Below, one piece after another: positions 9,639 through 26,785 of a stretch of DNA of 64,000 bases; within the stretch, counting starts at the first letter, position 1, and each line of letters starts with the position of its first letter. This DNA comes from Escherichia coli (lineage in GTDB: Bacteria; Pseudomonadota; Gammaproteobacteria; Enterobacterales; Enterobacteriaceae): assembly GCF_965641715.1 (NCBI RefSeq), contig NZ_OZ282453.1. One strand, given 5' to 3'. The notes under the pieces were generated by a model that did not search any database, had not been told where the DNA came from, and saw only the letters and a list, made by a program, of their open reading frames with translations. The position numbers and the translations under genes are program-made.

Positions 9639-9660
9639 AGTGTTGCCTTTTTGTTATCAA

Positions 9661-9690
9661 TAAAAAAGGCCCCCCGATTTGGGAGGCCTT
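9661..9690 (-). terminator. pheA attenuator (leader terminator)
   Basis: GC-rich hairpin plus T-run on the minus strand between pheL and pheA. Confidence 0.6.
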
Positions 9691-9736
9691 ATTGTTCGTC
9701 TTCGCATTCTGTTTCATACGACGAAACGCCTCCCAT

Positions 9737-9784
9737 TCAGGGGAAGGTAAAAAAGAATGCGAAGAAAAACGGTGTGTGTTTCAT
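9737..9784 (-). CDS. pheL: pheA operon leader peptide (Phe-rich)
   Basis: 15-codon ORF MKHTPFFFAFFFTFP with seven Phe codons, upstream of the attenuator hairpin; absent from the ORF track because it is short. Confidence 0.85.
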   Translation of the reverse strand: MKHTPFFFAFFFTFP

Positions 9785-9838
9785 GTTTGTTTCCTTAAGT
9801 GACTTTAGTACAGTACCCGTACTGTTTTCACGCTGTCA

Positions 9839-9865
9839 ACAAAAAACGCGCCCGAAGGTGCGTTG
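9839..9865. repeat. Prophage attL direct repeat (int-proximal)
   Basis: ACAAAAAACGCGCCCGAAGGTGCGTTG; matches 45803-45829 at 26 of 27 positions. Confidence 0.6.
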
Positions 9866-9951
9866 TAAAACCCACTGAATTCAATGTTTTCCCTTTGTTT
9901 TCAGTGGGTTTTGTTATTGGTGGGGGGTACTGATTACCCTATAAAACCCAC

Positions 9952-10974
9952 TTATGTGGATGAAATGTGGATGCCTCCTTTTAACGGATTAAGTGAAATT
10001 GCATCCTGGAGGAAATCAGGAGCGAGGTGCGCATAGGTCATAGTTTGCTGGATCGTGGCGTGCCCCATAATTCGCTGGAGCGTAAGTATATTTCCTCCAT
10101 TAATCATAAAGTGAGCTGCAAAGGTATGGCGTAGAACATGTACTGCCTGCCCTTTTGGTAGATCAGGTTTAACACTGCGAAGCACCTTGCGATATTCCTC
10201 ATAATTGACGTCAAACAAAAGGCCGGATTTCTTTGTTTTGATCTCGCTAACAACTTCATCAGAGACAGGAATAATTCGAACTTTTCCGTTTTTAGTTTTG
10301 TTAAACGTCACGCGGTTATTGATGATGTGTTCCGCGCGCAGATTTTTCGCTTCTCCCCATCTCGCACCAGTACTGAGACAAAGTAGCGTAATCCGCCGGG
10401 CATCACCGCTTACTGCATCCAGTAATTTGGCAATTTCTTCCGTGGTGAGATACGTCATTTCGGGTGATTTTCGTTTCAAAGAGGGGAGGGCGCGGAGCGG
10501 ATTTTCTCCGTGAAATTCCCCGGCATTTGCCAGGAGTGTAAACATTCCTCCGAGATCCGACTCATCACGCCGAACAGTAGACTCTTTTACTCCCAAAGAT
10601 AAACGGGAGCTTCGATAAGCGGCCATGAAACGAGCATTAATCTGGCTAACCCTTGGATCATTCATTTCTTTGATGATTTTTTTCAACCTGGTTAGAACGC
10701 CGTTAGCATATGGCTTATTGCGTCCACCCAATTCCCACCATAACGGAAGCAGATCTGAGAGATGACGTTGCTCTGTTGGCTTTTCAAGCCATTCCTTATC
10801 GTGCATGTGGCTGAGAACATAACGCTCAAAGGCCACTGCATCTGCCTTTTTCTTAAAAATCCGCTGAATCCGACGTCCACTTCGGCCACGCGGTCTAACA
10901 TCCACTTTATACCGTCCACCATCGAGTGCTTTAATTGCCATTGGCAAGCCCTCCGGTGAAACGAGGAAAGACAT
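9952..10974 (-). CDS. int: Phage tyrosine integrase
   Basis: 340 aa with C-terminal tyrosine recombinase catalytic region (HxLRHT...Y); immediately inside attL. Confidence 0.9.
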   Translation of the reverse strand: MSFLVSPEGLPMAIKALDGGRYKVDVRPRGRSGRRIQRIFKKKADAVAFERYVLSHMHDKEWLEKPTEQRHLSDLLPLWWELGGRNKPYANGVLTRLKKIIKEMNDPRVSQINARFMAAYRSSRLSLGVKESTVRRDESDLGGMFTLLANAGEFHGENPLRALPSLKRKSPEMTYLTTEEIAKLLDAVSGDARRITLLCLSTGARWGEAKNLRAEHIINNRVTFNKTKNGKVRIIPVSDEVVSEIKTKKSGLLFDVNYEEYRKVLRSVKPDLPKGQAVHVLRHTFAAHFMINGGNILTLQRIMGHATIQQTMTYAHLAPDFLQDAISLNPLKGGIHISST

Positions 10975-11007
10975 TTCCAGTTTGTAAAACGTAAGAATAA
11001 TAAAGGG

Positions 11008-11325
11008 TTAACCAATTTTCCTTTCGGATGGGGGTAAATCCGTTGGTTCTTGCCCATAGTGTGCGAGAGCCGGAGCTATCTGCCCGGATTCAGGCGCAAT
11101 TTTTCCAGTCATAAACCACAACGCATATTTCTCAAATCTGGGGTTGTTTAGTATTTGCTCAATTACTTCAGCATTAGGGATAGTTTTACCGCTTTCATAT
11201 CTCCACAGAGCATCACGGTTTAAACCAAGCATTTTTGCTGTATCCGGGAGGCTAGTAAGTCTCTCGCTTTCACGCATGATTTTTATGCGCTCTCCAATAG
11301 TCATACGCATGTTGCAATTCTCCAA
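11008..11325 (-). CDS. P2 C-type immunity repressor
   Basis: About 100 aa with HTH and C-terminal WFMTGKIAPESGQIAPALAHYGQ, resembling P2 repressor C as recalled; divergent from the early operon. Confidence 0.8.
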   Translation of the reverse strand: MENCNMRMTIGERIKIMRESERLTSLPDTAKMLGLNRDALWRYESGKTIPNAEVIEQILNNPRFEKYALWFMTGKIAPESGQIAPALAHYGQEPTDLPPSERKIG

Positions 11326-11405
11326 CGTCTGTATTAATGTTTATACAAATGAGTTTGATTTGGGGCATCCGTCGCAAGAAATACCCCAAACAGGGAGATT
11401 ATCAC

Positions 11406-11732
11406 ATGAATGAAGAACTATTGAGGGCATTGTTTAAGATCCCAGACCCCATCACCGTCGATGAGTTTTCCCGCCGCACAGGTAAGACCGAATCAGCCGT
11501 AAGAAAGTTGGTAGAGCGTCGACTCATCCCTCTAACTACTGAGCGCGAGGTTTTAGGCGAGGAAGGGAGTTCGCGCCGTCTTCTCATCCTTTGGAATGAG
11601 TGGCTCGAAATGGTCTATGACGCAACGAAACAGCTTCCTCCTGAGCGTAAAGATTGGCGCAATCACTGGCTGAAGAAAGCCAAGAAGCTGGCGGAAGATT
11701 TGGGATTAGGTTTTCTTAATTTTGCTGCATGA
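11406..11732 (+). CDS. Putative Cox/Apl-like excisionase-regulator (first early gene)
   Basis: Position and orientation match P2 cox; small basic protein with a predicted DNA-binding fold. Start at internal ATG 11406; sequence similarity to Cox not established. Confidence 0.45.
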   Translation: MNEELLRALFKIPDPITVDEFSRRTGKTESAVRKLVERRLIPLTTEREVLGEEGSSRRLLILWNEWLEMVYDATKQLPPERKDWRNHWLKKAKKLAEDLGLGFLNFAA

Positions 11733-11750
11733 GATGCAGGGAGTTTTGAT

Positions 11751-12092
11751 ATGAAACAGCAACGTAATTCACGCTTTCGTAATGGCGCTGAACGCCACGC
11801 TAACCGTTTCGCTACCAGCGCATCACGCAGCAACATCCGCTACAGCCTGAGTGATACACACGCAACGCCGGATGGCTACCCAGTAAAACAAATCGGCGAG
11901 CATGCCTGGCTGATTGAAAAAGCTGGAATCGTGGTCCACAAATGCCCACGCAATCCGTTTACCGGAAACCGCATTTTTGCATTGAGCTGCGGCGACAATC
12001 AGTTCGGGCAGGATTTCACATTGTACGAAGCGCTACGCACGGTTGATCGTCTGCTCCGCGGACAAAGTTTTATTAAACAGGCTGATTTATAA
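11751..12092 (+). CDS. Hypothetical early protein
   Basis: 113-aa ORF with RBS in the early operon; no recognised family. Confidence 0.5.
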   Translation: MKQQRNSRFRNGAERHANRFATSASRSNIRYSLSDTHATPDGYPVKQIGEHAWLIEKAGIVVHKCPRNPFTGNRIFALSCGDNQFGQDFTLYEALRTVDRLLRGQSFIKQADL

Positions 12093-12102
12093 CAGGTGCT
12101 TT

Positions 12103-12390
12103 ATGACCAAAGACCATGCACAAGGTGTATTTATCCGTTTTATTGATTTTCGCGGTGAACTGTTATTACGCGCATCCGCTATTGATGGAGTGGCTCCGGC
12201 GGGTAAAAACGGAGCCGACGAAGCCACTTACGTTTATCTGAACGGCACGCGACTGCTTGTGGAACTTCCGTACCAGACCGTACGAGAAATCATTAGCAAA
12301 GCTGAAAAAGCGCGCCAGGCTAATGGCAATGAACCCTATATCGAAATTATTTGCATGGATTCAGAAGCTGAAATCCAGAAAGCAGATTAA
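12103..12390 (+). CDS. Hypothetical early protein
   Basis: About 95-aa ORF from internal ATG 12103; tightly packed in the early operon. Confidence 0.45.
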   Translation: MTKDHAQGVFIRFIDFRGELLLRASAIDGVAPAGKNGADEATYVYLNGTRLLVELPYQTVREIISKAEKARQANGNEPYIEIICMDSEAEIQKAD

Positions 12391-12401
12391 AGGGCGTTGC
12401 G

Positions 12402-12644
12402 ATGGGCAAAGAATATAAAACTCTCATTAACAAAGCACTTGAGCGTTTCTATTTTCGCTTAAGTGCATCAGGCGCTCATGCTGAACGTGCTGCCCGTGAC
12501 TCATTGACCAGGGCAATCCGGAGTCTGTATGACGTGGCTTTTTACGCTGATGATCTGGATGCACCTAACGAACTTTCCGAGCTGATCTGTGCCGCAGAAT
12601 GCGGGGAACATATTGAACCGTATAAGCTGGGGAATATCGCATGA
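12402..12644 (+). CDS. Hypothetical early protein
   Basis: 80-aa ORF in the early operon. Confidence 0.5.
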   Translation: MGKEYKTLINKALERFYFRLSASGAHAERAARDSLTRAIRSLYDVAFYADDLDAPNELSELICAAECGEHIEPYKLGNIA

Positions 12645-12754
12645 GTATATTTATCTCATGGCTTGTTCTGATTATTTCGGTGGTCTGCGCCATTGGGATT
12701 ATGCGAATTATTAATTCAGTGAAAAAGATCGAGCGTTTTTTCTCTGATGAATAA
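12641..12754 (+). CDS. Putative small single-pass membrane protein (37 aa)
   Basis: MSIFISWLVLIISVVCAIGIMRIINSVKKIERFFSDE; start overlaps the preceding stop (ATGA coupling); hydrophobic core; below the ORF-track size cutoff. Confidence 0.35.
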   Translation: MSIFISWLVLIISVVCAIGIMRIINSVKKIERFFSDE

Positions 12755-12846
12755 CGATACAAATAAAACATCAAATTAAATAAGAAAACGTGAAAACCAT
12801 CCGTATTAACGGAGGTATTCGCACACGTAAATAATGGAGATATAAA

Positions 12847-13263
12847 ATGAACGCAAAAGAAGAAGGCATTATCGACACATTAAAAAAAATATCAGAAGCG
12901 GAAGATGAAATGGCTAAAGATGACGTGAAGCGTAGCCAACATATGGCAGCACTTCACGCACTGACCATCGCAAAAATCACCGCTGACGCAGCCAAAATTA
13001 TTGAGGAACAGGGCAAAGAAATCGACACTCTTAAAACACAGTCAACAGTTGCAGCCATGAATCCGTCCAGCATTGGACGCCGCATTTACATTCTTGGTTC
13101 GGCAATAATGACGCAATACACCATTATTGCCGAACTGCACGGCAAATACCTGATAACGCCTTACCACACAAAAGAGTCAGAGCTTCTGACAAATCTCCGC
13201 CTGATAGAACGCTCTCAAGCTGTATTCATTGATGACGCGCAACGTGCCGTATTTAACGCATAG
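12847..13263 (+). CDS. Hypothetical protein in an AT-rich stretch (candidate moron)
   Basis: 138-aa ORF in a visibly AT-rich segment (about 12650-13260) that contrasts with flanking phage DNA; Lys/Glu-rich N-terminus. Confidence 0.5.
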   Translation: MNAKEEGIIDTLKKISEAEDEMAKDDVKRSQHMAALHALTIAKITADAAKIIEEQGKEIDTLKTQSTVAAMNPSSIGRRIYILGSAIMTQYTIIAELHGKYLITPYHTKESELLTNLRLIERSQAVFIDDAQRAVFNA

Positions 13264-13286
13264 GGTTACTGGACAAAGGGGGCGCA

Positions 13287-13490
13287 ATGGCAATTAAGCA
13301 TTTTCCCGTCGTTCGCTTTACCTCCAGAGGGCGCGAATACGAGGTCGACGAACGCCTGATTACCACTATCGACAAACATCGTTCGGAAAAGGATGCACAC
13401 CACATCTACCTCACTGACGGCACTTACTTCTGCGCCACCAACGTGGCGCGGGTGAATCTTATCCGACAGGTACAGGAGCCACACAGATGA
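13287..13490 (+). CDS. Hypothetical early protein
   Basis: 67-aa ORF; stop overlaps the next start. Confidence 0.45.
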   Translation: MAIKHFPVVRFTSRGREYEVDERLITTIDKHRSEKDAHHIYLTDGTYFCATNVARVNLIRQVQEPHR

Positions 13491-13753
13491 CCATTCTGGA
13501 CTACATCGCTACTCATCCGGGGTGTAGCGGCGGAGAGATCGCCGCAGCACTGAATACTCCAACCACAGCCATTAATGCTGAGTTACGCCAACTTTGGCGC
13601 GGCGGCTTAGTCATCAGAACAAACCGCAGCACAGGTGGTCGCGCTCGCAAAACTGGAGGCCAGGCTTCTTACCACGTAAACCCGATGCCGTTCGGGTGTA
13701 GCAATCCACTTACTCACATGTTTAACCAGCTACTGAAGGAAGCCAGAGCATGA
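13487..13753 (+). CDS. Putative winged-helix DNA-binding protein
   Basis: 88 aa; ...GCSGGEIAAALNTPTTAINAELRQLWRGGLV... resembles a winged HTH; translationally coupled to its neighbours. Confidence 0.5.
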   Translation: MTILDYIATHPGCSGGEIAAALNTPTTAINAELRQLWRGGLVIRTNRSTGGRARKTGGQASYHVNPMPFGCSNPLTHMFNQLLKEARA

Positions 13754-14049
13754 GCACCATCAACCACCAGAAGCTACGCGAACTGGCATTTGCCCTGCAA
13801 CGAATGGCAACGCCTCAAAAATTACTGGCATTTCGCGCAATGCTCTCGCCGTCTGCTGTGCTGGCATTGCTGGATGAGCTGGAGCACGCCAGAACCACGG
13901 CTCCTGCCATTCGCCTGACGCTCCATCATGAAATCGCTGATTTCTGCGCGACATTGGAGGCGCCAGGCGAACCGGAAACGCCGGAAGCAATACAGCAAGA
14001 GCCGCTGCAACGCATTGACAAGGTTTTTGATTTTTTTCTGAACCAGTAA
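13750..14049 (+). CDS. Hypothetical early protein
   Basis: 99-aa ORF overlapping the previous stop by 4 nt. Confidence 0.5.
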   Translation: MSTINHQKLRELAFALQRMATPQKLLAFRAMLSPSAVLALLDELEHARTTAPAIRLTLHHEIADFCATLEAPGEPETPEAIQQEPLQRIDKVFDFFLNQ

Positions 14050-14371
14050 GAAACCAGAGCATGCACACACAAAAAAACCGCTTGCCATGCCGCAATCAGT
14101 CAGGTTACATTTTCGCTGCACCTCATAAAACGGGTGCCGGGTTTCGCAGCCTGCTGACAACCAAAGCGCACAACCGCGCCAGCGGTTTTTTTGTGCGTAC
14201 TGTATTGCCACGTTTTTTTCGCGTCAGAATTATGGCGGGGCGTACGGGGCCGACTTCGGTCGGGCCGGGTTCTTTGGTTGCCGGTACTGCGAACCCCGTA
14301 CGTCTCGCCACCCACAGTTTCGCAGCTCTGGATGGTGAGTTTTCAAAACTTACAACCAAAGAGGCCACACC

Positions 14372-14602
14372 ATGGCAAACCGCAAACAGCACCGCGCTAT
14401 CGCGGAGCGTCGTCACATCCAGACTGAAATCAACCGCAGACTTTCCCGCGCATTCCGCGTCGCTAAAATCATGCACATCAATATGCTGCATGAGCGTAGC
14501 TGCGAACTTTCAAACCTCTACTCATCCGCTGTTTTCAGCTATCTGGCGGATGATCTGCGCGAGCTTCAACAGCTCATCCAGCAGCAAAACAAACTCCATT
14601 AA
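14372..14602 (+). CDS. Hypothetical early protein
   Basis: 76-aa basic ORF after a ~320-bp non-coding stretch. Confidence 0.45.
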   Translation: MANRKQHRAIAERRHIQTEINRRLSRAFRVAKIMHINMLHERSCELSNLYSSAVFSYLADDLRELQQLIQQQNKLH

Positions 14603-14674
14603 TTCCTGTTCCGGGCCTTTCCTGCACCTTGCGGCGGGAGGCCTTCGCACATCTGTAACAAGAGGATTGCCGCA

Positions 14675-15040
14675 ATGATTCTCGCCAACGACTTTCTTGA
14701 ATACCTGCTCAACACAGAGCGTGATCTTGCCGCTCGCGTACGTGATCGTTATGACATGTATCTGAAATCCCTGCCTGTACCGCAGCTCGCTGACGGAAAG
14801 ATTGTTATTGATGGTCGCTACATGATTGACAGCCACGAGGGAAATTACAGGCTTTACCGCATTGAAGGTGGCACCCCGTCCGTTATTGGCATTTACCAGC
14901 GCCCATCCTCTGCAATCGTCGATGTGATTGCCGACAGCATCCGCATCACACATCGCCATGCCGACACAGAAGACACCGTGCTGGAAATTCAGCGGCTGGC
15001 TGCCGTCTGCCGCGACACCCTGAATGGCATGACGAAGTAA
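14675..15040 (+). CDS. Hypothetical early protein
   Basis: 121-aa ORF immediately upstream of gene A. Confidence 0.5.
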   Translation: MILANDFLEYLLNTERDLAARVRDRYDMYLKSLPVPQLADGKIVIDGRYMIDSHEGNYRLYRIEGGTPSVIGIYQRPSSAIVDVIADSIRITHRHADTEDTVLEIQRLAAVCRDTLNGMTK

Positions 15041-15046
15041 ATCACT

Positions 15047-17869
15047 ATGACGGCAGAGTACATCAGGGACTGGCAACAACCGCGCCACGCAGTGGGACGT
15101 GAAGGAACGGGGATCCCCGTTCCTGAATCCGCGCTTTCCTCCTGGCTGGATGCCTACCGGGCAGAGAACGAGCGCCGCCAGGAAATGGCTGATGCGGCGT
15201 TCTCCGCCACGCCGCTGGGCAACCTGATTAATAAAAGCCTGGATGCACAGGAAAAACAGGACAAAACCATCACACTGGCAGGAGACGCCAGAAAACAGGT
15301 ACGCGGTGCGGTGGATGAAGCCATGGCCTCGCTGCGCCTGCTGCCGTCCTATCTGCGCGATCCGCTTATTCGCCACCTCTCCTTCCTGCGCAAAAAACAG
15401 GAAGCCGATCGCCGGAAAGGCAAAAAGAGCTGGCAGGCTGAACGCTACGCGCGCGGAACCCTGCGCAAAATATTCGAACGTCTGGACCGCACCGACCACC
15501 GCTGGCTGACACCGGGTTATCGCTCCCTTGCCGGACGCGAACGCCTGGATGATTTGCTTTACCTGCCGCAGCTCAACAAGCACCAGATACAGACGCTGGC
15601 CACCATGACGGCGGCGATGTTCAGCAGCACCTTCGAAAAACTCTGCGATGGCTTTGGCGCGACTGATGGCGAGCTGACCATGGATGTAACGCTGAAGGCG
15701 TATCAGATGCTGGCCCGCATGGCGTTACACCTGCACGCCATGCCTCCGCATTATGATGCACTGACAACAGACAAAGACCGGAGGAACGAACCGGACACGG
15801 AGCTGCTGCCGGGCGCAATCCTTCGCCTGACCTGTGCGGAATGGTGGAAACGCAAACTGTGGCTGTTACGTTGCGAGTGGCGGGAAGAACAACTCCGCGC
15901 CGCCTGTCTGGTTTCCAGAAAAACATCGCCCTATCTGAGCCAGGACGCGTTAAGCGAGTTTCGCGCACAGCGCGAGAAAACACGCGATTTCCTGAAAAGT
16001 TTCATGCTGGAAAACGAAGACGGGTTCACGATTGATCTCGAGACGGTGTATTACGCGGGAGTAAGTAACCCGGTTCATCGTAAGGCAGAAATGATGGCCA
16101 CCATGAAGGGGCTGGAACTTCTGGCCGAAGCCCGTGGCGACAAAGCGGTGTTTCTGACTGTCACCTGCCCGTCAAAATACCACGCCACAACAGAGAACGG
16201 TCATCCGAATCCCAAATGGAACGGGGCCACCATGCGCGACTCCAGCGATTACCTGGTTAACACGTTTTTTGCGGCGGTCCGCAAGAAACTGAACCGCGAC
16301 GGCCTGCGCTGGTATGGCATCCGCACGGTGGAGCCTCACCATGACGGCACCGTGCACTGGCATATGATGGTCTTTGCTCATCCGGAAGAAATCGACACCA
16401 TTGTGTCCCACACCCGCGATATTGCCATTCAGGAAGATCGTCACGAGCTGGGTGATGATATTACCCCACGCTTTAAGGCGGAGTACGTCGACGGCTCAAA
16501 AGGCACACCGACCAGCTACATCGCCACCTACATCGGGAAAAACCTGGACAGCCGTGCCGTGGATGGCATCGACCCGAAAACGGGCAAGCCACGCGTTGAC
16601 CACGAAACCGGAAAATCAATGGCCGAGAGCGTGGAACGCGCCATCGGCTGGGCGCGCCTTCATCGGGTCCGCCAGTTCCAGTTCTTTGGCATCCCCTCCC
16701 GTCAGGTGTGGCGTGAACTGCGCCGCCTTGCCAGCCAGATGGCTCGCAACCCGGAAGGACCGCAACGGCTGAAGGATGACGCAATGGACGCGGTTCTTGC
16801 TGCCGCTGATGCCGGATGTTTTGCCACCTACATAGAGAAACAGGGCGGCGTACTTGTTCCACGCAAGGACTACCTGATTCGCACCGCCTACGACCTCGCA
16901 GATGAGCTGAACGATTACGGTGAACAGAGCGTACAGATTTACGGGATCTGGTCACCGCTCATCGGGGAGTCTTCCCGCGTATGCACGCATCCGGACAACT
17001 GGAAGCTGGTAAGACGCAAACCGGAAGCGGAAGACAGCGCCCGCGAAAATGGTTTTGACCTTCAGGGCGGCCCTGCCGCCCCTTGGACTCGTGGCAATAA
17101 CTGTCCCCGTGTACAGGAAACAGGCAACAGCGGGACAGAACAGTCGAAAGAACGGCCAGCACCGTGGCCGCAGCTTCCTGACGGCGTTGACGTGAACGAA
17201 TGGATGCGCTCACTGAAACGGCACGAACGCCGGGCGCTGATGCGTTCGCTTCGTGACAAACAGGCAAAAAACAGCAGTGATGAAATGCAGAGCTGGACAC
17301 AGAGCCGCAAACAGCCACGGCCTTTGCCTGATAACCACGAATTACTCGCTAAAGAATGGCGGGAGTCTGCTGAATCTCTCGGCCTGCATATCGGTGAACA
17401 ACAGATGCAGCACCTGTTACGGGGCGGCAGTCTGTACGTTGACGGCAGCATCATTGCACCGCAGGGATTTGAAATTGTACGCAAACCGGATACCCGCCCG
17501 GACAGCCGAATCACGCAGCTCTGGCAGCGCCTGAGCCGTAATCATGGCGTAAGCAGCACGGAGATCCGCCATAACCCGGTCGCCAGCTATCTGGCACAGC
17601 TGGGGGCATCAGACCCTGAAGCCGCCGCACGCCTGGCATCCACACTTCAGCAGGACCAGAACACCATGAAAACACCCGTTACCGTGCTTTCTGACATGCT
17701 GCGCGCCATCCGCGACGCAGAGCACGCACAGAGAATCAGTGAAACCACTGAACGCGCCAGCCGCAAAGCAGACCTGCTGCGGGGTGGCCTGACCAGTGGA
17801 AACAAAAAACAGACAGAAACGGGATTCACAAATCCCATAAATGAGCAAAAAACGTGCCGCGATATATGA
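15047..17869 (+). CDS. Rolling-circle replication initiator (P2 gpA-like endonuclease)
   Basis: 940 aa with a HUH-type motif (VHWHMMVF); position after the early genes as in P2. Longer than P2 A as I recall it. Confidence 0.85.
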   Translation: MTAEYIRDWQQPRHAVGREGTGIPVPESALSSWLDAYRAENERRQEMADAAFSATPLGNLINKSLDAQEKQDKTITLAGDARKQVRGAVDEAMASLRLLPSYLRDPLIRHLSFLRKKQEADRRKGKKSWQAERYARGTLRKIFERLDRTDHRWLTPGYRSLAGRERLDDLLYLPQLNKHQIQTLATMTAAMFSSTFEKLCDGFGATDGELTMDVTLKAYQMLARMALHLHAMPPHYDALTTDKDRRNEPDTELLPGAILRLTCAEWWKRKLWLLRCEWREEQLRAACLVSRKTSPYLSQDALSEFRAQREKTRDFLKSFMLENEDGFTIDLETVYYAGVSNPVHRKAEMMATMKGLELLAEARGDKAVFLTVTCPSKYHATTENGHPNPKWNGATMRDSSDYLVNTFFAAVRKKLNRDGLRWYGIRTVEPHHDGTVHWHMMVFAHPEEIDTIVSHTRDIAIQEDRHELGDDITPRFKAEYVDGSKGTPTSYIATYIGKNLDSRAVDGIDPKTGKPRVDHETGKSMAESVERAIGWARLHRVRQFQFFGIPSRQVWRELRRLASQMARNPEGPQRLKDDAMDAVLAAADAGCFATYIEKQGGVLVPRKDYLIRTAYDLADELNDYGEQSVQIYGIWSPLIGESSRVCTHPDNWKLVRRKPEAEDSARENGFDLQGGPAAPWTRGNNCPRVQETGNSGTEQSKERPAPWPQLPDGVDVNEWMRSLKRHERRALMRSLRDKQAKNSSDEMQSWTQSRKQPRPLPDNHELLAKEWRESAESLGLHIGEQQMQHLLRGGSLYVDGSIIAPQGFEIVRKPDTRPDSRITQLWQRLSRNHGVSSTEIRHNPVASYLAQLGASDPEAAARLASTLQQDQNTMKTPVTVLSDMLRAIRDAEHAQRISETTERASRKADLLRGGLTSGNKKQTETGFTNPINEQKTCRDI

Positions 17870-17945
17870 AGCGCGCACAAAACAGGCAAAAGCGGGATTT
17901 AAAAATCCTGTAAACGATTAATTAATCAACATAAGGAAAAGCGAC

Positions 17946-18905
17946 ATGAAAATTTGTATCGACGACGGCTCCACCAACATCAAGCTGGCATGGACTGAGA
18001 ACGGCGAACGCCGCAACGCCATCAGCCCGAACAGCTTCAAGTCGGAATGGTCTGCGCCGTTCGGTGGCTCGCAGCCCGCGAACTACATGCTTGATGGCGT
18101 GCGCTATGGTTTTGATCCGGTCAGCGATCGCTTTGTCCAGACGACCGACACGCAATACCAGTACAGCGATGTGAATGTCATTGCCATTCATCACGCGCTG
18201 GTCAAATCAGGCATCACGCCACAGGAGGTGGATGTGGTTGTCACCCTGCCATTGAGCGAGTATTTCGACACAAACGCACAGCCGGACATGGCCAACATCA
18301 GCCGCAAAAAAGCGAACGTTATGCGCCCGGTGGAGTACCAGAACGGCGAAACATTCACTATCCGTAACGTACGGGTTATGCCTGAATCCATTCCGGCTGG
18401 CTTTAAAGCACTGGCTGACATGAGTCCGCTTGAATCCCTGCTGATTGTGGATTTGGGCGGAACCACACTGGATGTGGCAAAGGTTCAGGGGCAACTGGCA
18501 GGTATCAGCCAGGTGTTTTGCGATCCACACGTAGGCGTTTCCCTGATGGCCGATGCCGTACTGTCGGTGATGGCCACTAACGGTATGCGTATCAGTCACC
18601 ACATCGCCAATACCATTATCGAACATCGCCATGATGAAGCCTGGTTGCGCCAGCACATCCACAATGACGCGCATTACGCCAGCCTGATGGCGGTTATTCG
18701 TGAAAAGGAAGAAACACTGAAACAACGCGTGATCCGCGCGCTGGCGGTTTTTTCGGGTTACGGGCGGGTGATGGTTGTCGGTGGCGGGGCGGAGATTGTG
18801 GCACCCGCTATCCGCGAAGCCTGCGGAGTTAATGCGACTTTCATCGCGGACGGGGTGCCACAGTTTGCTCTGGTTAATGGGCTGTACGCAATGGACAAGG
18901 AGTAA
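17946..18905 (+). CDS. ParM/StbA-like actin-type segregation ATPase
   Basis: N-terminus MKICIDDGSTNIKLAW... and later ...YSDVNVIAIHHAL... closely resemble plasmid R1 ParM (MLVFIDDGSTNIKLQW...YSDVNVVAVHHAL) as recalled. Confidence 0.85.
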   Translation: MKICIDDGSTNIKLAWTENGERRNAISPNSFKSEWSAPFGGSQPANYMLDGVRYGFDPVSDRFVQTTDTQYQYSDVNVIAIHHALVKSGITPQEVDVVVTLPLSEYFDTNAQPDMANISRKKANVMRPVEYQNGETFTIRNVRVMPESIPAGFKALADMSPLESLLIVDLGGTTLDVAKVQGQLAGISQVFCDPHVGVSLMADAVLSVMATNGMRISHHIANTIIEHRHDEAWLRQHIHNDAHYASLMAVIREKEETLKQRVIRALAVFSGYGRVMVVGGGAEIVAPAIREACGVNATFIADGVPQFALVNGLYAMDKE

Positions 18906-18909
18906 ACCA

Positions 18910-19221
18910 ATGACGACTCCAACCAGACGGATAAGTTTCTATCTGAAGCCCGCCGCCGTCAAGAACGAAGGTGAAGCATGCGCCTGGCTGGACAGCCTTA
19001 CACCAGAAGCGCGCAAAAGCGGCCAACGCGTGGCTTTTCTGGCCGGGCTGGCACTTCTGAAAATGAATCCGGCAGAGGCTTACCGACTGGCTGCATGGGC
19101 TGATGATGAAGCGTTATCAGTGACACAAACCAGGACAGAACGCCCCGCGTCACAGCCAGTATCAACCGCACAGATAACCAGTCAGATGGCCGGAAATATC
19201 CGGGCGTTATTTCCCGAATAA
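18910..19221 (+). CDS. ParR/StbB-like centromere-binding adaptor
   Basis: 103 aa from ATG 18910 (AAGGAG RBS); RRISFYLKP...LDSLTPEARKSGQRVAFLAGLAL and C-terminal NIRALFPE parallel R1 ParR; 4 nt after the ParM stop. Confidence 0.7.
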   Translation: MTTPTRRISFYLKPAAVKNEGEACAWLDSLTPEARKSGQRVAFLAGLALLKMNPAEAYRLAAWADDEALSVTQTRTERPASQPVSTAQITSQMAGNIRALFPE

Positions 19222-19284
19222 CACAACATCAGGGCGCATCCGCCCTGATGACTTTAACCCGGGAACATAAACAAGGGGGACACA

Positions 19285-19620
19285 ATGCAACGCATTGACA
19301 GAGAAAAAGCGCAGCGACTGATTGAGCGGATGGAAGCGCTGGCGAAAGAAGAAAATGTCAACATCCAAAAAATAGCTGAATGTGGCCAGATAGTTCTTCG
19401 TCGTGAAAAAGACCTCAAACAACTGATGTCTGGCGAAACCAGCAAAACATGGACTTCAGGTGAGGAGACGATTTATTGCAGCTTCTGCAATAAATCCCAG
19501 TACGAAGTCACAAAGGTGATTGCCGGACCGTCTGTTTACATCTGCAATGAGTGCGTTGATTTGTGCAATGAAGTTATCAGGAGAGAAGTGACAGACCATG
19601 AAGAAAAAACGCATGAATGA
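19285..19620 (+). CDS. Protein with C-terminal ClpX-type C4 zinc-binding domain
   Basis: C-terminal [39 protein letters not shown] is near-identical to the ClpX N-domain as recalled; N-terminal ~65 aa unrelated and helical. Confidence 0.75.
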
Positions 19621-19786
19621 CGAATTTGACGGCTTTTAATTTTATCGGGGCGCACTGTCGCCCTGCATGGAGAAAAACAATAAAAAAGATGAATAACTGC
19701 TCATGTCAGACGCGCTGCGGGCAAGTCTGGCACCCTGCCCTGTCTCCGCAAAGGCTGTTGTCTTAACACGACAGAGTATGCCAGCA

Positions 19787-20194
19787 TTAAATATAATCTT
19801 CTTCGTAGTCGCTGATTAATTCATTGCCATAATCAGACAGCAATTTCAAAGCAAAGGTAACTTCCTCAAGGGTAGCTATCCCCATTGCTGAAAACACCGT
19901 TAATTTAACCAGCAGCAGGGAGTTTGAAAGTTCGGAAGAGTTCATCATTAAAAATATTGATGCAGCCTGAAAAGCTGTGCGTTTATTCCCATCATGAAAG
20001 GCATGAGCCTTGGCTATACCAATCAAATACATAGCAGCCAGAGCATGAATATCATCAACCCCTTCATAGTAGTGTAGTGTCCTGACGCGATTTAAAGCAC
20101 CTTCAAGTAGCCCGTCATTGGCATTTCCGCTCTGGGGTAAAGTTTCAGCATGGATACGTTCTACTTGTTCTTTTGACAAAAACACTATGTCCAT
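19787..20194 (-). CDS. Doc-family (Fic-fold) toxin
   Basis: 135 aa with Fic/Doc active-site motif HAFHDGNKRTAF; downstream of and overlapping the antitoxin gene. Confidence 0.8.
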   Translation of the reverse strand: MDIVFLSKEQVERIHAETLPQSGNANDGLLEGALNRVRTLHYYEGVDDIHALAAMYLIGIAKAHAFHDGNKRTAFQAASIFLMMNSSELSNSLLLVKLTVFSAMGIATLEEVTFALKLLSDYGNELISDYEEDYI

Positions 20195-20550
20195 CAGTTA
20201 TCCTCAAGCTTTTTAATGATATCCGCATGTTTTTCTCTTGTACGCTTCATTGCATCTTCAAAAGACAATCCTTTTTTTCTCTGTGCGACAAGAGCTGGAT
20301 GACGTTTTTCCAGATCTCTCACTGCATTTATTAAGAGTGGTTGCTTCATTTTGTTTATTTGATCCCGCAGTTTTTTGGTTTTGCCAAGGACAGCCCGTAT
20401 TTCAGGACTAAGATCAGAACCAGCAAGAACAACATCCTTCCCTCCCTGCGCCGTGATAACGACACTGCCACCGGAAGAAAGGTAATCCAGAATTTCACTC
20501 AGGTTCTCACGAAATTCATCATCAGTTACAGTTTTCATATTCATTTCCAT
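20194..20550 (-). CDS. Phd/YefM-like antitoxin with C-terminal extension
   Basis: N-terminus ...MKTVTDDEFRENLSEILDYL...VVITAQGGKDVVLA fits the Phd/YefM pattern; stop overlaps the Doc start. Confidence 0.65.
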   Translation of the reverse strand: MEMNMKTVTDDEFRENLSEILDYLSSGGSVVITAQGGKDVVLAGSDLSPEIRAVLGKTKKLRDQINKMKQPLLINAVRDLEKRHPALVAQRKKGLSFEDAMKRTREKHADIIKKLEDN

Positions 20551-20624
20551 TATGCACGCCCATAACGTAAGTATAACGGCTTGTTGGGCAGTAATAACAC
20601 CGCCATATTTTCATTTTATACACC

Positions 20625-20650
20625 GCACAATAGTGCACAAATTTGCACAA
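20625..20650 (-). promoter_or_regulatory. Putative operator of the phd-doc promoter
   Basis: Three GCACAA hexamers at 10-bp phasing (20625, 20635, 20645) overlapping -10/-35-like elements upstream of the antitoxin gene. Confidence 0.4.
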
Positions 20651-21074
20651 TTTTTTTGAACAACTTTTTACCCTTCCGGCCCGCGTGGCGACTGGATCCG
20701 TCAAGGATCCGTGCGTGCACAAAAAAACGCGTTTTTTCTGCGCGCAGGTGACGGGGGAACAGCCCGCGTTTCAGGGGGTAAATAGCATTCCCTGAACGAT
20801 GTCGCAGCGACACAACAGAATGGCTGTATTTCTCACACTGAGCGTGAAAAAGGCGTGAGGGCTTTTGATTTGATGGGGTGACAGATAAGGCCGTCAAAAT
20901 CGCACTGAGGCGGCAAGAACATGCAGTCAACGCGGTGGGATTGCGTAAGAGCCTGACCGTCGATGATGGCGATAAGCTGGAAGACGTCGTGAAATTATCT
21001 GATTGATACAGGAGCTGGAGAGTCGGGGCATAAATTTTTTATGCCCCGGCGAAGCAGCAGACAAGCGAAGCGCG

Positions 21075-22121
21075 TCAGGATGTGGGCTGGGTGTCCAGCA
21101 GTGCGTAAGGGTTAAAGCGGATCACCTCTTCGCCAAGCCAGTCATTGATATGCTTCATGGCCTCCATGACGGGCATCAGCTCGTTAATTGCGTAAACCCG
21201 CGCTGCCTTCTCCACATCACCAAACGCACTTTTTTCGCCCGGCATCGCCCCCATCAGTTGCGGCGGAACGCGGTGCGCAGCCAGCACATCATCACGGGAT
21301 GCCGCCTTAACATTCATGAACTCATCCTTTGCGGTGATCTGCTGGAACGGCAAAATTTGCACACCTTCTTTGCCCCCGTTGGGCGCGTGAATGAGCACGT
21401 TTTTAAATGCACCACCACCACGCGCACCCTGTAGCGTTTCCTTCAGGGAGTCCATGCTTTCGCGGTTTACCTGCGCTGCACCGATGTAGATGATGCACCC
21501 GGCGTGGGATCCATTGTCGTAGTACAGTTTTCTGAACATGTCCGCCGAATGAGACAGGCTGGCCGAGAGTAATGCGCCAAGATATTCCGGCATGCCGTAA
21601 ATTTCCTGGTTAATGTCCGGATTCATCAGGTGGCACACTTTGCCAGGGCGAAACTGAAACGCGTCCTTGCCATCCTGCACATACCACCATGATTCAAGAT
21701 CGCTTCCGCGTCGCATGTATTTCGCCAGTGCGTGCCGTAATTTAAGTGGTTCGCCGAGCATATTGCTCCGAAGCTCAAGGAATGCGTTACCGAACACAAA
21801 CCAGTCCAGCGCCAGCGCCGAGAAATCCTGCCGGGAAAGCAGCGGGTGCGGGATGTAGCAACCGAGCAATACATTGCGCTTAAAGTAAAGCGCAGACTGA
21901 TGCCAGGACGTTTGCCGGGCGGCTCTTGCCAGACCGTACCAGTCCACCGGGGTTTCATACCACCGCCCGTTATCAGCACAGTACATATTGTCCAGCAGGT
22001 CATGCCCGGTCAGGCGGTAAGGACCATCAAATGTGAATGCACTGAGCGACGATTCTTTCCTGAGCGCATCAGCGAGATCAATGCGTGAACTCATGCGCAC
22101 TTTTTTATTTTTTCTGCTCAT
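21075..22121 (-). CDS. Portal protein (P2 gpQ-like)
   Basis: 348 aa, co-oriented and overlapping with the large terminase gene as in the P2 Q-P operon. Confidence 0.85.
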   Translation of the reverse strand: MSRKNKKVRMSSRIDLADALRKESSLSAFTFDGPYRLTGHDLLDNMYCADNGRWYETPVDWYGLARAARQTSWHQSALYFKRNVLLGCYIPHPLLSRQDFSALALDWFVFGNAFLELRSNMLGEPLKLRHALAKYMRRGSDLESWWYVQDGKDAFQFRPGKVCHLMNPDINQEIYGMPEYLGALLSASLSHSADMFRKLYYDNGSHAGCIIYIGAAQVNRESMDSLKETLQGARGGGAFKNVLIHAPNGGKEGVQILPFQQITAKDEFMNVKAASRDDVLAAHRVPPQLMGAMPGEKSAFGDVEKAARVYAINELMPVMEAMKHINDWLGEEVIRFNPYALLDTQPTS

Positions 22122-23872
22122 CAGAACTCCATAACCGTGAAACGCTCGTTTTCTCCTTCGCCGCCAATTGGTTCGTTAATGACAGCAAGCATGGTTGCCC
22201 ACGCAAGGTCGCCGTGGCTGATCCCCCTCGCGCGGTCCGTTTCGTAAGTGATAAAGCCGCCCGGTGTTTTCACCTTACGCACGGCGTTAAAGGCCGCGAC
22301 CAGCTCGCGTTCGGCGCGATCGTATTCCCACCGCCCGGCACGCATTATTTGCAGCATTTTCAGTACCAGCGACCGTTTTGATGACAGCGTGAAGGTGTAC
22401 GGAATAGCGGCAGGGAAAAACCGTTTCACTATCTGATAAACAGCCTCCCCGTTCCCGCCCGTCACATCAATGCCGATGTGTTCCACGTTGTAGCGACACG
22501 TGAACTCTTCAATGACTCTGGCCTGTTCTTCAAACTCCAGCCCCTGAACGCGTCGCGTCTCCACCGTTCGAAAACGGCCACCAGGAACAGCCGGAGGAAC
22601 CACCACGGACACCGCGCCACTGTCGCCGTTTCCACTGCTGCCGTTTGCGTCATACCCAATCCATACCGGACGATTCCCCATCGGGCGGGGAGCAAAAGGT
22701 TTCCAGTCTTTCCAGTCGTCGTATCCGTCAACACCGCAGCCAATCAGGATATTCAGGTTAAATGCCGATTCCCCTTCGCGGACAAACTCACACATATAGA
22801 GATTGCGGAACTCGTCTTCGGTGTTTTCATCACGAATTTCATCAATATCGGTGTGTTTCCAGCCGTGATTAACCACATCTTCCAGCGTGACAATTTGCCG
22901 CCACGTCCGGTCGGGGCAGATAAGCCCGTTATGCAGCGTTTTCCAGTCCACAGAAAAACGCTGGCGTTTATGCGCGGCCTTTTTCTCGTTCCAGCGGTCG
23001 CCGTTCCAGTAGACGTATGCCTCGTGCGTTTCGGTTGATGGCGTGGAGAAGTAGGTGCGTCGCAGCCCGCTGAGGGTTGCCATAGCGCCAGCCACCTTGC
23101 GCAGTTCAGCAAAGCGACTGACCCAGAAAAATTCATCAAAATAAAAATTGCCTGTGTAGGACTGTGCCGTCGCAGCAGAAGTGCCGAGAAAATGCAGCTC
23201 TGCGCCGTTGGAGAGGATGATTTTATCGCCCCCTTTCAGCTCCACATCAACTTCAGATGCAGCCTTCTGAATAATGCTTTTAAACTGGAACGCCTGACGA
23301 CGCGACGCAGACAAAAAAATCTGGTTACGCTGGTAAGGTTGCGCCACATCGTCACGCAGCGCCATCAGCAGTGCTTCCTGTGCAAAATACCAGGTCGCCC
23401 CAATCTGTCGGGATTTCAGGATCATCCTGTTACGTATCCCGGCTTCCCTGCAAAGGGTCAGGGAGTCAAACCAGCCCCGCTGATGCCACTCCAGCCTGCT
23501 GATGATTTTTTCCCGCAGTGCGGCAATCTGTTCCGGCGTGAAATGATTTTTAAGCTTTTTCGCCCGGCCTTTCTTTCCTGTGGCCGTCGCATCCGGCTGG
23601 CCATCATGCAGTTTTTTAAGCTGCCGGGTCAGCAGGTCTATTTCCTTAAAGTCACCGCCTGTTTTATTCTGTTTTTCAGTAAGCTGGATGAGGCGCGCAT
23701 CGATGGACTGCGTGACACGCTGCACGGGTGGCGTTTCATCCCACTGGTCGCGTTTTTTCCACGCATAAATCGTGTTCGGGTTTATTCCCATCAGACGTGA
23801 TATTTCAGCGGGCGGATAACCCTGCCAGTAAAGTTGTCGCGCACGCTGGCGCACAAAAGCGTCCTGAATCAT
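22121..23872 (-). CDS. Terminase large subunit (P2 gpP-like ATPase)
   Basis: 583 aa with N-terminal HTH and terminase ATPase/nuclease regions; divergent from the capsid operon. Confidence 0.9.
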   Translation of the reverse strand: MIQDAFVRQRARQLYWQGYPPAEISRLMGINPNTIYAWKKRDQWDETPPVQRVTQSIDARLIQLTEKQNKTGGDFKEIDLLTRQLKKLHDGQPDATATGKKGRAKKLKNHFTPEQIAALREKIISRLEWHQRGWFDSLTLCREAGIRNRMILKSRQIGATWYFAQEALLMALRDDVAQPYQRNQIFLSASRRQAFQFKSIIQKAASEVDVELKGGDKIILSNGAELHFLGTSAATAQSYTGNFYFDEFFWVSRFAELRKVAGAMATLSGLRRTYFSTPSTETHEAYVYWNGDRWNEKKAAHKRQRFSVDWKTLHNGLICPDRTWRQIVTLEDVVNHGWKHTDIDEIRDENTEDEFRNLYMCEFVREGESAFNLNILIGCGVDGYDDWKDWKPFAPRPMGNRPVWIGYDANGSSGNGDSGAVSVVVPPAVPGGRFRTVETRRVQGLEFEEQARVIEEFTCRYNVEHIGIDVTGGNGEAVYQIVKRFFPAAIPYTFTLSSKRSLVLKMLQIMRAGRWEYDRAERELVAAFNAVRKVKTPGGFITYETDRARGISHGDLAWATMLAVINEPIGGEGENERFTVMEF

Positions 23873-23993
23873 TGCTCCCCCTGAGTAATTACAGGAAGAT
23901 TACCCGCGCGCGAAACCGTTCTCCTTAACCCCCTGTTCTGGCCATTTTCTTACAACAAAAGCCCTTTGTATCAGCCTGTTACGCTTTGCCATC

Positions 23994-24863
23994 ATGACTG
24001 AAGAACCAGTCAGAGGGGCAAAAACTATGGCTAATGAAAAAAAGACATCACGCAAAAAGTTTCGCGTGGCTGTCTCCGGATCAACTGTTGATGGCCGCGA
24101 AATCAGTCCGGTGCATCTGCGTGAAGCTGCTGAGAACTTCGACCCGGATGTTTACGCTGCCCGCGTGAACGTTGAGCACTATCTCTCGCCATGCCCGTCA
24201 AGCGAATTTTCCGCAATGGGCGATGTCACCGCACTGAGTACGGAAGACATTACGGAAGGTCCGCTGGCCGGGCGTACTGCGCTGTATGCAGAAATCGAAC
24301 CGACCGAGCGCATGAAGAAGCTTGTCGCTGACGGCAAGAAAATTTATTCCAGTATCGAACTGCACCCGCAGTTCTCCGTTAACGGGCGCGCCTATCTGGT
24401 CGGGCTGGCGATGACCGACACCCCGGCAAGCCTGGGCACTGAACGTCTGAAATTCACGGCACAGCAACGTCAGGCAGTGATGAAATTCAACAGTGTCCAG
24501 GGTGAGGCTCCGCTTATCTCCGAAGCCATCGAGTCTGAAATCATCGAAATGGCAGAACAACGCCAGGAAGAAGGCACCCAGTGGTTTAACCGCGTAATGG
24601 GAATTATTGGCCGTGGCCGCAAAGCGGATGACGCCAGTTTTTCCCGTATTCAGGAAGCGGTGGAAGGCGTCGCAACGTCACAGGCCGACATTATCGACCG
24701 TTTTAATGCACTGGAAGCCCGCCATAAGCAGGACCGTCAGAAAATCACGTCACTGACCACAGAGCTGACAGCACTGAAGGAAAAACTGCGCACGCAGGAC
24801 GGCGATCCGCAGAACCGGTTCACCGCAACGGGCGCAGCCTCCGACCAACTGGCTGACTTCTGA
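23994..24863 (+). CDS. Capsid scaffolding protein (gpO-like)
   Basis: 289 aa, first gene of the head operon directly before the major capsid gene; coiled-coil-rich C-terminus. Confidence 0.8.
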   Translation: MTEEPVRGAKTMANEKKTSRKKFRVAVSGSTVDGREISPVHLREAAENFDPDVYAARVNVEHYLSPCPSSEFSAMGDVTALSTEDITEGPLAGRTALYAEIEPTERMKKLVADGKKIYSSIELHPQFSVNGRAYLVGLAMTDTPASLGTERLKFTAQQRQAVMKFNSVQGEAPLISEAIESEIIEMAEQRQEEGTQWFNRVMGIIGRGRKADDASFSRIQEAVEGVATSQADIIDRFNALEARHKQDRQKITSLTTELTALKEKLRTQDGDPQNRFTATGAASDQLADF

Positions 24864-24886
24864 TAAGACAAAGGAGCAAAATTTTT

Positions 24887-25939: not shown

Positions 25940-25984
25940 TCAACTCACGGCGGGCATCATGCCCGCCTGTAACGGAGAGAAAGA

Positions 25985-26785
25985 ATGATTACCCCTGCAC
26001 AGCAACACTGGCAGAACGTGATGGCGCAGCGCGCAGGCCGGGCGAATGAAGGCGTGGATCACGCCGCACGTACCGCGCATGAAGAGGTGCTGTATCGTCT
26101 GCGTCTGGCACAGGCCCGACTTAAGGGCGTACAGGCCAGAAGCGCCAAAGCCGCCATCAAAAAAGAGTTGTTACCGGACTTTTCTGGCTGGATTGAAGGA
26201 ACGCTGGAGGCTGACGGCGGGCAGCAGGATGAGGTGATTGCCACGCTGATGGTGTGGGCGATTGACTGTGGCGATCTTCCGCTGGCATTGCGTATTGGTG
26301 CGTATGTGGTCCGTCACAACCTCATCATGCCGGATAACTTTGGCCGTACTGCTGCCACAGTGCTGACCGAAGAAATCTGCAACCCGGTACTGACGCAGGC
26401 CGGGACGGATGCCGACGCGGATTTGTCCGCCTTTATCGAACCACTGGACACCCTCCGGGAGATTGTCACCGACCAGGATATGCCGGACGAAGTACGCGCC
26501 AAATTATGCAAGGCGTGCGCCTTTGCCCGCCGTGGCCTGAGCGATGCGGACAGCATGGCCCTGTCACTGAAGCTGCTGCGCGAAGCGATGCACCTGAACC
26601 CGAACGCAGGTGTGAAACGCGAGATTGCAACCCTTTCCCGCGCCCTGAAAAAAGCCGATTCCGCAGCCGCCCCAGATGACGCCAGCGCACAGCAGGCGCA
26701 GGACGAAAGCAGCAAAAGTAAAAAGACAACGCGGAAGCCTGCAACACGAAAAACCACCGCGACGCAGAAGGCGAAGCGCGTTTAA
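25985..26785 (+). CDS. Terminase small subunit / endonuclease (gpM-like)
   Basis: 266 aa with basic Lys/Arg-rich C-terminal tail; P2 M position. Confidence 0.75.
   Translation: MITPAQQHWQNVMAQRAGRANEGVDHAARTAHEEVLYRLRLAQARLKGVQARSAKAAIKKELLPDFSGWIEGTLEADGGQQDEVIATLMVWAIDCGDLPLALRIGAYVVRHNLIMPDNFGRTAATVLTEEICNPVLTQAGTDADADLSAFIEPLDTLREIVTDQDMPDEVRAKLCKACAFARRGLSDADSMALSLKLLREAMHLNPNAGVKREIATLSRALKKADSAAAPDDASAQQAQDESSKSKKTTRKPATRKTTATQKAKRV

What the first reader, a model, noticed from the sequence alone, without database searches (positions are those of the whole stretch)
9839..9950. Integration into the raiA transcription terminator with 27-bp att repeats
The prophage is flanked by 27-bp direct repeats (9839-9865 and 45803-45829, one mismatch) that coincide with the intrinsic terminator hairpin of raiA. 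This is a non-tRNA attachment site, and the raiA-proximal copy keeps a perfect terminator. Next to attL there is also a 12-bp inverted repeat (AAACCCACTGAA...TTCAGTGGGTTT, about 9868-9912) and a repeated AAAACCCAC motif, candidate integrase arm-type or IHF sites.
Basis: seen in the sequence. Interest (0 to 1): 0.4.

Follow-up and report, generated by a model that had tools for sequence, protein, structure and literature searches.

The report
P2-like prophage att sites at raiA terminator
The 27-base repeats are the genuine left and right junctions of a P2-like prophage that inserted into the transcription-terminator hairpin of the E. coli raiA gene; this is an ordinary, already catalogued kind of phage attachment site.

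Summary
The 27-bp repeats (9839-9865 and 45803-45829, one mismatch) flank a ~36-kb P2-like prophage lying between pheL and raiA in E. coli. Deleting one repeat plus the prophage gives a sequence 100% identical to a natural empty site. Of 5426 complete E. coli genomes, 5273 have the uninterrupted junction and 124 carry both of these junctions. The raiA-side copy is the intact terminator (8-bp stem, UUCG loop, -14.4 kcal/mol). The pheL-side copy carries a T at 9859 that no matching empty site shows, so I infer it came from the phage; it weakens the stem to -9.0. Two other P2-type integrases, 57-59% identical to this one, use the same site in 6 and 22 genomes. Together the three types account for all 152 interrupted junctions. 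Comparing them limits strand exchange to CCCGAAGG, the terminator loop plus two closing pairs on each side. The arm-type sites are TGTGGA-N5-TGTGGA doublets at 9955-9971 and 45744-45760. An IHF-like site sits in the other arm. The AAAACCCACT repeats lie where Cox binds in P2. The exact att pair is already listed in a 2026 preprint supplement. Ordinary; low interest.

The parts
9839..9865 (.). attL core copy, next to pheL and int. It is an imperfect copy of the raiA terminator, with T at 9859. Its first base overlaps a TTGACA hexamer (9839->9834, minus strand) that fits the pheL -35 element.
   Evidence: hairpin -9.0 kcal/mol versus -14.4 for the raiA-side copy
45803..45829 (.). attR core copy, which is the functional-looking raiA intrinsic terminator (hairpin 45828->45809 on the minus strand plus a T tract). 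C at 45823 is the host allele.
   Evidence: the C-allele empty site is 100% identical to NZ_CP021844
9851..9858 (.). CCCGAAGG (also at 45815-45822): the inferred overlap or crossover segment. It corresponds to the terminator loop plus the two closing base pairs on each side.
   Evidence: It is the only block identical between attB and the attP of the second prophage type, whose junctions differ immediately on both sides. In the window's own prophage the mismatch at position 21 lies just to its right.
9867..9952 (.). P' arm spacer. It holds the 13-bp inverted repeat (9867-9879 / 9900-9912) and a third AAAACCCACT copy (9943-9952). This is a candidate Cox (excisionase) binding region; alternatively it forms a 3' hairpin on the int mRNA.
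   Evidence: positional match to the Cox site in P2 record NC_001895; the RNA fold has z = -4.8. The function is inferred, not tested.
9955..9971 (+). P' arm-type integrase sites, TGTGGAT x2 spaced 11 bp apart, lying within the last codons of int.
   Evidence: P2 has the same arrangement; consensus tgTGGaCa from PMC3448106
9952..10941 (-). int, a P2-type tyrosine integrase. The likely start is M12 of the 340-aa ORF that runs from 9952 to 10974.
   Evidence: Pfam Phage_integrase and Int_N; 54% identical to P2 Int over its full length
11008..11325 (-). C-type HTH repressor gene
11337..11732 (+). cox homologue (excisionase and switch protein)
   Evidence: Pfam Phage_Cox 24.6 bits, below the 27.5 cut-off; BLASTP against P2 Cox gives E = 5e-9
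45744..45760 (+). P arm-type integrase sites, TGTGGAC and TGTGGAT spaced 11 bp apart
45785..45797 (+). IHF-like site AAACAATTTGTTA (one mismatch to WATCAANNNNTTR), lying between the P arm sites and the core
   Evidence: the IHF site annotated in P2 holds the same position
45706..45728 (.). Terminator hairpin after the prophage DNA methyltransferase gene; it marks the outer limit of the P arm.
9866..45802 (.). P2-like (Peduoviridae, P88-like) prophage body of about 36 kb
   Evidence: Pfam GPA, portal, terminase, P2 capsid and GPD; late genes 95.7% identical to phage P88 over 93% of 24.8 kb
45852..46193 (-). raiA
9660..9785 (-). Phe leader with pheL (9784->9737)
   Evidence: Rfam RF01859, 128.6 bits

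Best explanation
The two 27-bp repeats are attL and attR of a roughly 36-kb P2-like prophage. A P2-type tyrosine integrase recombined the phage attP with an attB that is the intrinsic terminator hairpin of raiA, immediately upstream of the pheL promoter. The phage core copies the terminator almost exactly, so integration regenerates a fully host-derived hairpin behind raiA (attR). It also leaves a near-copy in front of the pheL promoter (attL). Strand exchange most likely occurs within CCCGAAGG, the hairpin loop plus two closing pairs on each side. The terminator stem would then supply the inverted core-type half-sites. The rest of attP follows the P2 plan: paired TGTGGA arm-type sites in both arms (the P' pair inside the int 3' end), an IHF-like site in the P arm, and a repeat-bearing segment where Cox would act for excision. 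What is shown directly: the junctions, the empty site, the population counts, the allele pattern and the homology to P2. What is inferred: the exact overlap, which proteins bind which motif, and whether the prophage can still excise.
For: Deleting the prophage plus one repeat gives a sequence 100% identical to a natural empty site, and 5273 of 5426 genomes are uninterrupted. 124 genomes share both junctions, with prophage lengths of about 34.6-40.8 kb. No empty site matching the T-allele query perfectly was found. No lysogen matches perfectly with the two alleles swapped. This fits exchange to the left of position 21. A second prophage type (6 genomes) and a third (22 genomes) use the same attB with different arms. 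The 124, 6 and 22 genomes add up to all 152 interrupted sites. Type 2 shares only CCCGAAGG with attB without interruption. Int is 54% identical to P2 Int. The attP layout and spacings match the annotated P2 attP.
Against: No intact attP junction for this phage was found in the phage collection, IMG/VR or JGI metagenomes, so there is no direct sequence evidence that it currently excises. The IHF site is a single one-mismatch consensus hit. The AAAACCCACT motif is absent from the C-cox switch region, so the Cox assignment rests on position alone. The independence of the 124 lysogens was not tested by phylogeny.
Confidence: 0.9

Rival explanations
1. The AAAACCCAC motif and its inverted repeat are integrase arm-type or IHF sites.
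For: The motif is repeated three times next to the core and occurs nowhere else in the window.
Against: P2-type arm sites are tgTGGaCa direct repeats (PMC3448106), and such doublets are present at the expected places in both arms. The motif does not match the IHF consensus. It lies in the interval that Cox occupies in P2. Related phages carry different inverted repeats at the same position but the same TGTGGA-type arm sites.
Confidence: 0.1
2. The inverted repeat at 9867-9912 acts at the RNA level, as a 3' stabiliser or terminator hairpin for the int transcript, rather than as a protein-binding DNA site.
For: It lies just downstream of the int stop codon on the sense strand. It folds strongly together with the core hairpin (-42.8 kcal/mol, z = -4.8). 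One variant (L029) has an A-to-G change that would keep pairing as G-U.
Against: The stem is AT-rich and its U run is inside the stem, so it is not a canonical terminator, and the scan does not call it. The third, unpaired copy of the motif at 9943-9952 is not explained by a hairpin.
Confidence: 0.25
3. The prophage is a fixed, defective remnant inherited vertically, and the att repeats are relics rather than a live recombination site.
For: No attP junction was found in any collection searched.
Against: The lysogens span many serotypes and hosts, and their prophage lengths vary. The gene set looks complete. Three integrase types use the site, and a preprint table lists the same core in Salmonella.
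Confidence: 0.1
4. The repeat is a chance or pre-existing duplication of a terminator and is unrelated to integration.
For: Terminator hairpins can recur in genomes.
Against: About 3e-6 such pairs are expected by chance. The empty site holds a single copy, and exact deletion restores it.
Confidence: 0.01

Closest known systems
Phage P2 Int/attP/Cox/IHF site-specific recombination system (Peduoviridae)
   Same: Int is 54% identical over its full length, and the int-C-cox module is the same. The attP order is also the same: terminator, paired arm sites, IHF, 27-bp core, about 88 bp of spacer, then paired arm sites overlapping the int 3' end.
   Different: The core and the attB differ: here the raiA terminator, in P2 the core AAAAAATAAGCCCGTGTAAGGGAGATT. 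The motif in the Cox-position segment differs. The Int core-binding domain is only 37% identical.
Escherichia phage P88 (Xuanwuvirus)
   Same: Late genes are 95.7% identical over 93% of 24.8 kb.
   Different: The integrase is only 56.6% identical, and the int/attP region has no nucleotide match. The integration module has been exchanged.
Klebsiella phage 3LV2017
   Same: It has the closest integrase in the phage collection (64%). Its annotated att core is also a terminator-like hairpin (AACCCGGAG CAC CTCCGGGTT), with the same arm-site layout.
   Different: It targets a different hairpin in a different host.
Att pairs of P2-like prophages in File S6 of bioRxiv 10.64898/2026.02.27.708500
   Same: The table lists exactly ACAAAAAACGCGCCCGAAGGTGCGTTG / ACAAAAAACGCGCCCGAAGGCGCGTTG for E. 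coli elements of 35.4-38.2 kb. It also lists variants at the same core in E. coli and Salmonella.
   Different: This is a bulk table. The main text mentions neither raiA nor pheL, and the word 'terminator' does not occur in it. raiA and pheL are also absent from the held supplementary files.
Integrases that target the symmetric stem-loops of tRNA/tmRNA genes (Williams 2002, as cited in PMC3603311)
   Same: A conserved hairpin with dyad symmetry serves as attB, and the duplication preserves the host function.
   Different: The target here is a terminator hairpin, not an RNA gene. No tRNA lies at the site.

Membership tests
P2-type tyrosine-integrase recombination module | Tyrosine recombinase homologous to P2 Int | tested here: met
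   Pfam PF00589 and PF24624; 54% identity to P2 Int, E = 6e-136
P2-type tyrosine-integrase recombination module | Paired arm-type direct repeats (tgTGGaCa) on both sides of the core | tested here: met
   TGTGGA-N5-TGTGGA is found only at 9955-9971 and 45744-45760 in the 64 kb, against 0.36 expected; consensus from PMC3448106
P2-type tyrosine-integrase recombination module | A core shared by attP and attB that flanks the prophage, with an empty site restored on exact deletion | tested here: met
P2-type tyrosine-integrase recombination module | IHF site between the P arm and the core | tested here: inconclusive
   One consensus match with one mismatch at 45785-45797; binding was not tested
P2-type tyrosine-integrase recombination module | Cox-type directionality factor and its binding sites in the P' arm | tested here: inconclusive
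   A cox homologue is present, though below the Pfam cut-off; pairwise E = 5e-9. The AAAACCCACT repeats lie in the right interval, but the motif is absent from the switch region.
P2-type tyrosine-integrase recombination module | Demonstrated integration and excision (attP and attB products) | not testable with these tools
   Exact attP junction searches were negative in IMG/VR and JGI metagenomes
Rho-independent terminator of raiA | GC-rich hairpin followed by a U tract, just downstream of the stop codon | tested here: met
   Scan hit at 45828->45809 with 8 pairs; -14.4 kcal/mol, 23 nt after the stop codon. Termination itself was not measured.
tRNA/tmRNA-gene attachment site | Core overlaps a tRNA or tmRNA gene | tested here: not met
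   The Rfam scan finds no tRNA or tmRNA near either junction

The most novel reading that the evidence does not exclude
The raiA terminator may be a shared landing pad for at least three diverged P2-type integrase lineages in E. coli, with matching att entries for Salmonella in a preprint table. They are 57-59% identical overall and 41-52% in the core-binding domain. All three exchange strands in the same segment of 8 bp or less, in the C(UUCG)G loop. More broadly, this integrase clade may target intrinsic-terminator hairpins systematically, using the stem as the inverted core half-sites. That would explain why some intergenic attB sites stay conserved between genera without invoking selection for lysogeny.
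Probability: 0.45. Interest if true: 0.35.

Novelty: already known. Interest (0 to 1): 0.15.

Why it matters
The finding gives precise boundaries for a prophage carried by about 2.3% of complete E. coli genomes. It also shows that integration leaves raiA termination and the sequence upstream of the pheL promoter essentially unchanged. The comparison of three phage types offers a simple, testable explanation for the conservation of an intergenic attB: the site is itself a working terminator. It also pins the crossover to 8 bp or less without any experiment. Beyond annotation and possible use as a defined integration site, nothing here challenges current understanding.

Tried and rejected
I searched for the excised attP junction in IMG/VR and JGI metagenomes, and for the int/attP region in the phage collection. 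Nothing was found.

I searched the GTDB species representatives for the attL pattern. Nothing was found.

I tested whether the AAAACCCACT motif also occurs in the C-cox switch region, as Cox boxes do in P2. It does not. The same test recovers only a 7-mer for P2 itself, so it has little power.

I considered lambda-type sib retroregulation for the hairpin downstream of int. I rejected it because the hairpin lies between int and the core, so it stays linked to int in both the phage and the prophage state.

Literature searches for raiA, yfiA or pheL as a named integration site found nothing. Karlsson et al. 2006 is not held in the library. The supplement of Bobay et al. is not held either.

Full report
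**Observation.** The two copies are present exactly as described. 9839-9865 reads ACAAAAAACGCGCCCGAAGGTGCGTTG. 45803-45829 is the same except for C at position 21, so 9859 is T and 45823 is C. It is the only long, near-perfect two-copy family in the region (family D15). About 3e-6 such pairs would be expected by chance.

**Genomic context.** On the minus strand the order is raiA (46193->45852), the repeat, the prophage, the repeat, pheL (9784->9737) and pheA. The Phe leader is recognised by Rfam at 9660-9785. The host is E. coli.

**It is a real insertion with exact boundaries.** I built a synthetic sequence lacking the prophage and one repeat, with the C allele.
- It is 100% identical to NZ_CP021844, and 5273 of 5426 complete E. 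coli genomes have the uninterrupted junction.
- 124 genomes carry the same pheL-int junction and the same methylase-raiA junction.
- Short queries across each junction are also matched full-length in 124 genomes.
- The attL-to-attR distances in those hits range from about 34.6 to 40.8 kb. The cargo therefore varies while the ends do not.

**What the inserted element is.** It has a P2 gene plan.
- Pfam finds Int, an HTH repressor, a Cox-like protein, GPA, portal, terminase, P2-family capsid and GPD.
- The late genes are 95.7% identical to phage P88 over 93% of 24.8 kb.
- The integrase is only 56.6% identical to that of P88 and at best 64% identical to any phage-collection integrase (Klebsiella phage 3LV2017). 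The int/attP DNA has no near match in that collection.
- The element is therefore a P88-like Peduoviridae prophage with a different integration module. Its Int is 54% identical to P2 Int end to end.

**The terminator.**
- The raiA-side copy is called as an intrinsic terminator at 45828->45809 on the minus strand: AACGCGCC UUCG GGCGCGUU followed by UUUUGU. It starts 23 nt after the raiA stop codon and folds at -14.4 kcal/mol.
- The pheL-side copy has an A-C mismatch in the stem and folds at -9.0 kcal/mol. The scan does not call it.
- The first base of the repeat overlaps a TTGACA hexamer at 9839->9834 on the minus strand. This fits the pheL -35 element. That assignment rests on my memory of the pheA promoter and was not tested; the promoter scan calls nothing here.
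- Because 27 bp are duplicated, raiA keeps its whole terminator. The pheL promoter keeps its upstream sequence, apart from one base.

**Which allele is phage-borne.**
- A query for an empty site carrying T finds no perfect match; the best hits are 77 of 78 bases.
- Queries with the alleles swapped (attL with C, attR with T) find no perfect match among the 124 lysogens. The listed hits differ from the query by exactly one base.
- So T belongs to attP and C to attB, and exchange lies to the left of position 21.

**Other users of the same site.**
- *Type 2.* NZ_CP149553 carries a 48.8-kb mosaic prophage between pheL and raiA, with a P2-type int-C-cox module and lambdoid late genes. Its Int is 58% identical to the window's.
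- Its attL reads ...AACGCGCCCGAAGGTGCTTTAAGG..., and its attR reads ...TTTTTTAAAGCACCCGAAGGCGCGTTGG.... A 95%-identical variant has the same junction. Six genomes carry this type.
- *Type 3.* A 29-kb P2-like prophage has attL ...GGTGCGTTA and attR AAATAAAACGCGCCCGAAGGCGCGTTG. It is present in 22 genomes.
- The 124, 6 and 22 genomes sum to 152. That equals the number of matching genomes lacking an uninterrupted junction (5425 minus 5273).
- The only block that type 2's attP shares with attB without interruption is CCCGAAGG (9851-9858 and 45815-45822), and its junction sequences switch on both sides of that block. The overlap region is therefore inferred to lie within these 8 bp. On the RNA they form the UUCG loop plus two closing pairs on each side.
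- All three attP types carry T just to the right of the block.
- The three integrases are 57-59% identical overall and 41-52% identical in the core-binding domain.
- Type 2's attR hairpin is weakened to -8.3 kcal/mol and its U tract is cut short. Types 1 and 3 keep -14.4 kcal/mol.

**attP anatomy.** The P2 GenBank record gives this order: ogr terminator, Int P arm, IHF, core, Cox, and Int P' arm overlapping the int 3' end. The window matches it element by element.
- A terminator hairpin lies at 45706-45728.
- TGTGGAC and TGTGGAT sit at 45744-45760.
- A one-mismatch IHF consensus lies at 45785-45797.
- The core follows, then 88-89 bp of spacer.
- TGTGGAT occurs twice at 9955-9971, inside the last codons of int.
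- The TGTGGA-N5-TGTGGA doublet occurs only at these two places in the 64 kb. It fits the published P2-type arm consensus tgTGGaCa (PMC3448106).
- The AAAACCCACT repeats and the 13-bp inverted repeat fall in the interval that Cox occupies in P2. I read them as candidate Cox sites. A 3' hairpin on the int mRNA is the alternative. Neither reading could be tested.
- Types 2 and 3, 3LV2017 and several IMG/VR relatives each have a different inverted repeat in the same interval.

**A wider pattern.** In 3LV2017 the annotated att core is also a perfect hairpin flanked by A and T runs. In IMG/VR relatives with 58-61% identical integrases, a GC hairpin followed by a T run lies about 100 nt beyond the arm sites. 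This suggests that the clade targets terminator-like hairpins. It is an inference drawn from a handful of loci.

**Prior knowledge.** No held paper names raiA/yfiA-pheL as an integration site. However, File S6 of bioRxiv 10.64898/2026.02.27.708500 lists this exact att pair for E. coli P2-like prophages. It also lists the type 3 pair and Salmonella variants at the same core. Bobay et al. (PMC3603311) had already noted that P2-like phages use many intergenic sites, some of them conserved between E. coli and Salmonella.

**Verdict.** The motif assignment is wrong. The feature is an ordinary, already catalogued attachment site of a known recombination system.

Noticed in passing
L001/L002 (NZ_CP149553.1, 1210552-1259217): A 48.8-kb mosaic prophage sits at the same attB. 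It combines a P2-type int-C-cox module and a replication endonuclease with lambdoid late genes (HK97-type head, Q antiterminator, J, Lom). It also carries IS66 and IS200 insertions and three tRNA genes.
   Followed up: partly
L060 3046-3200 (IMGVR_UViG_2531839662_000010): The same int and P' arm are joined, after CAACGCACCTTC (inside the inferred overlap), to unrelated phage-like DNA that encodes ParB-domain and methyltransferase-like proteins. This is either integration at a secondary site or an assembly chimera.
   Followed up: partly
window 14118-14315: Rfam finds isrK (14118-14192) and a C4 antisense RNA (14228-14315) side by side in the early region of the prophage. This looks like a P1/P7-type C4 immunity element inside a P2-like phage.
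   Followed up: no
window 32521-32916: Three tandem copies of a 132-nt unit (100%, 80% and 61% identity to the first copy) lie inside the 764-aa ORF at 31994-34288, probably a tail fibre gene.
   Followed up: no
window 44895-45701: An N6/N4 DNA methyltransferase gene is the last prophage gene before attR. Phage Chuche has the same gene, annotated next to a Com-like gene and a MokW-like toxin gene, but a different attP and integrase. The boundary of module exchange therefore lies just after the methylase terminator.
   Followed up: partly
window 49055-57198: Beyond raiA, bamD and rluD, Rfam finds the sRNA RyfD (49055-49193) and a complete rRNA operon: 16S, a tRNA, 23S and 5S.
   Followed up: no
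L071 29290-29370 (NZ_CP041284.1): The P arm of the type 3 prophage (arm sites plus ATAAATCCTTTTATTTCAAT) is nearly identical to the P arm and IHF site of phage P2, although its core differs. Arms and cores therefore seem to be exchanged independently.
   Followed up: no
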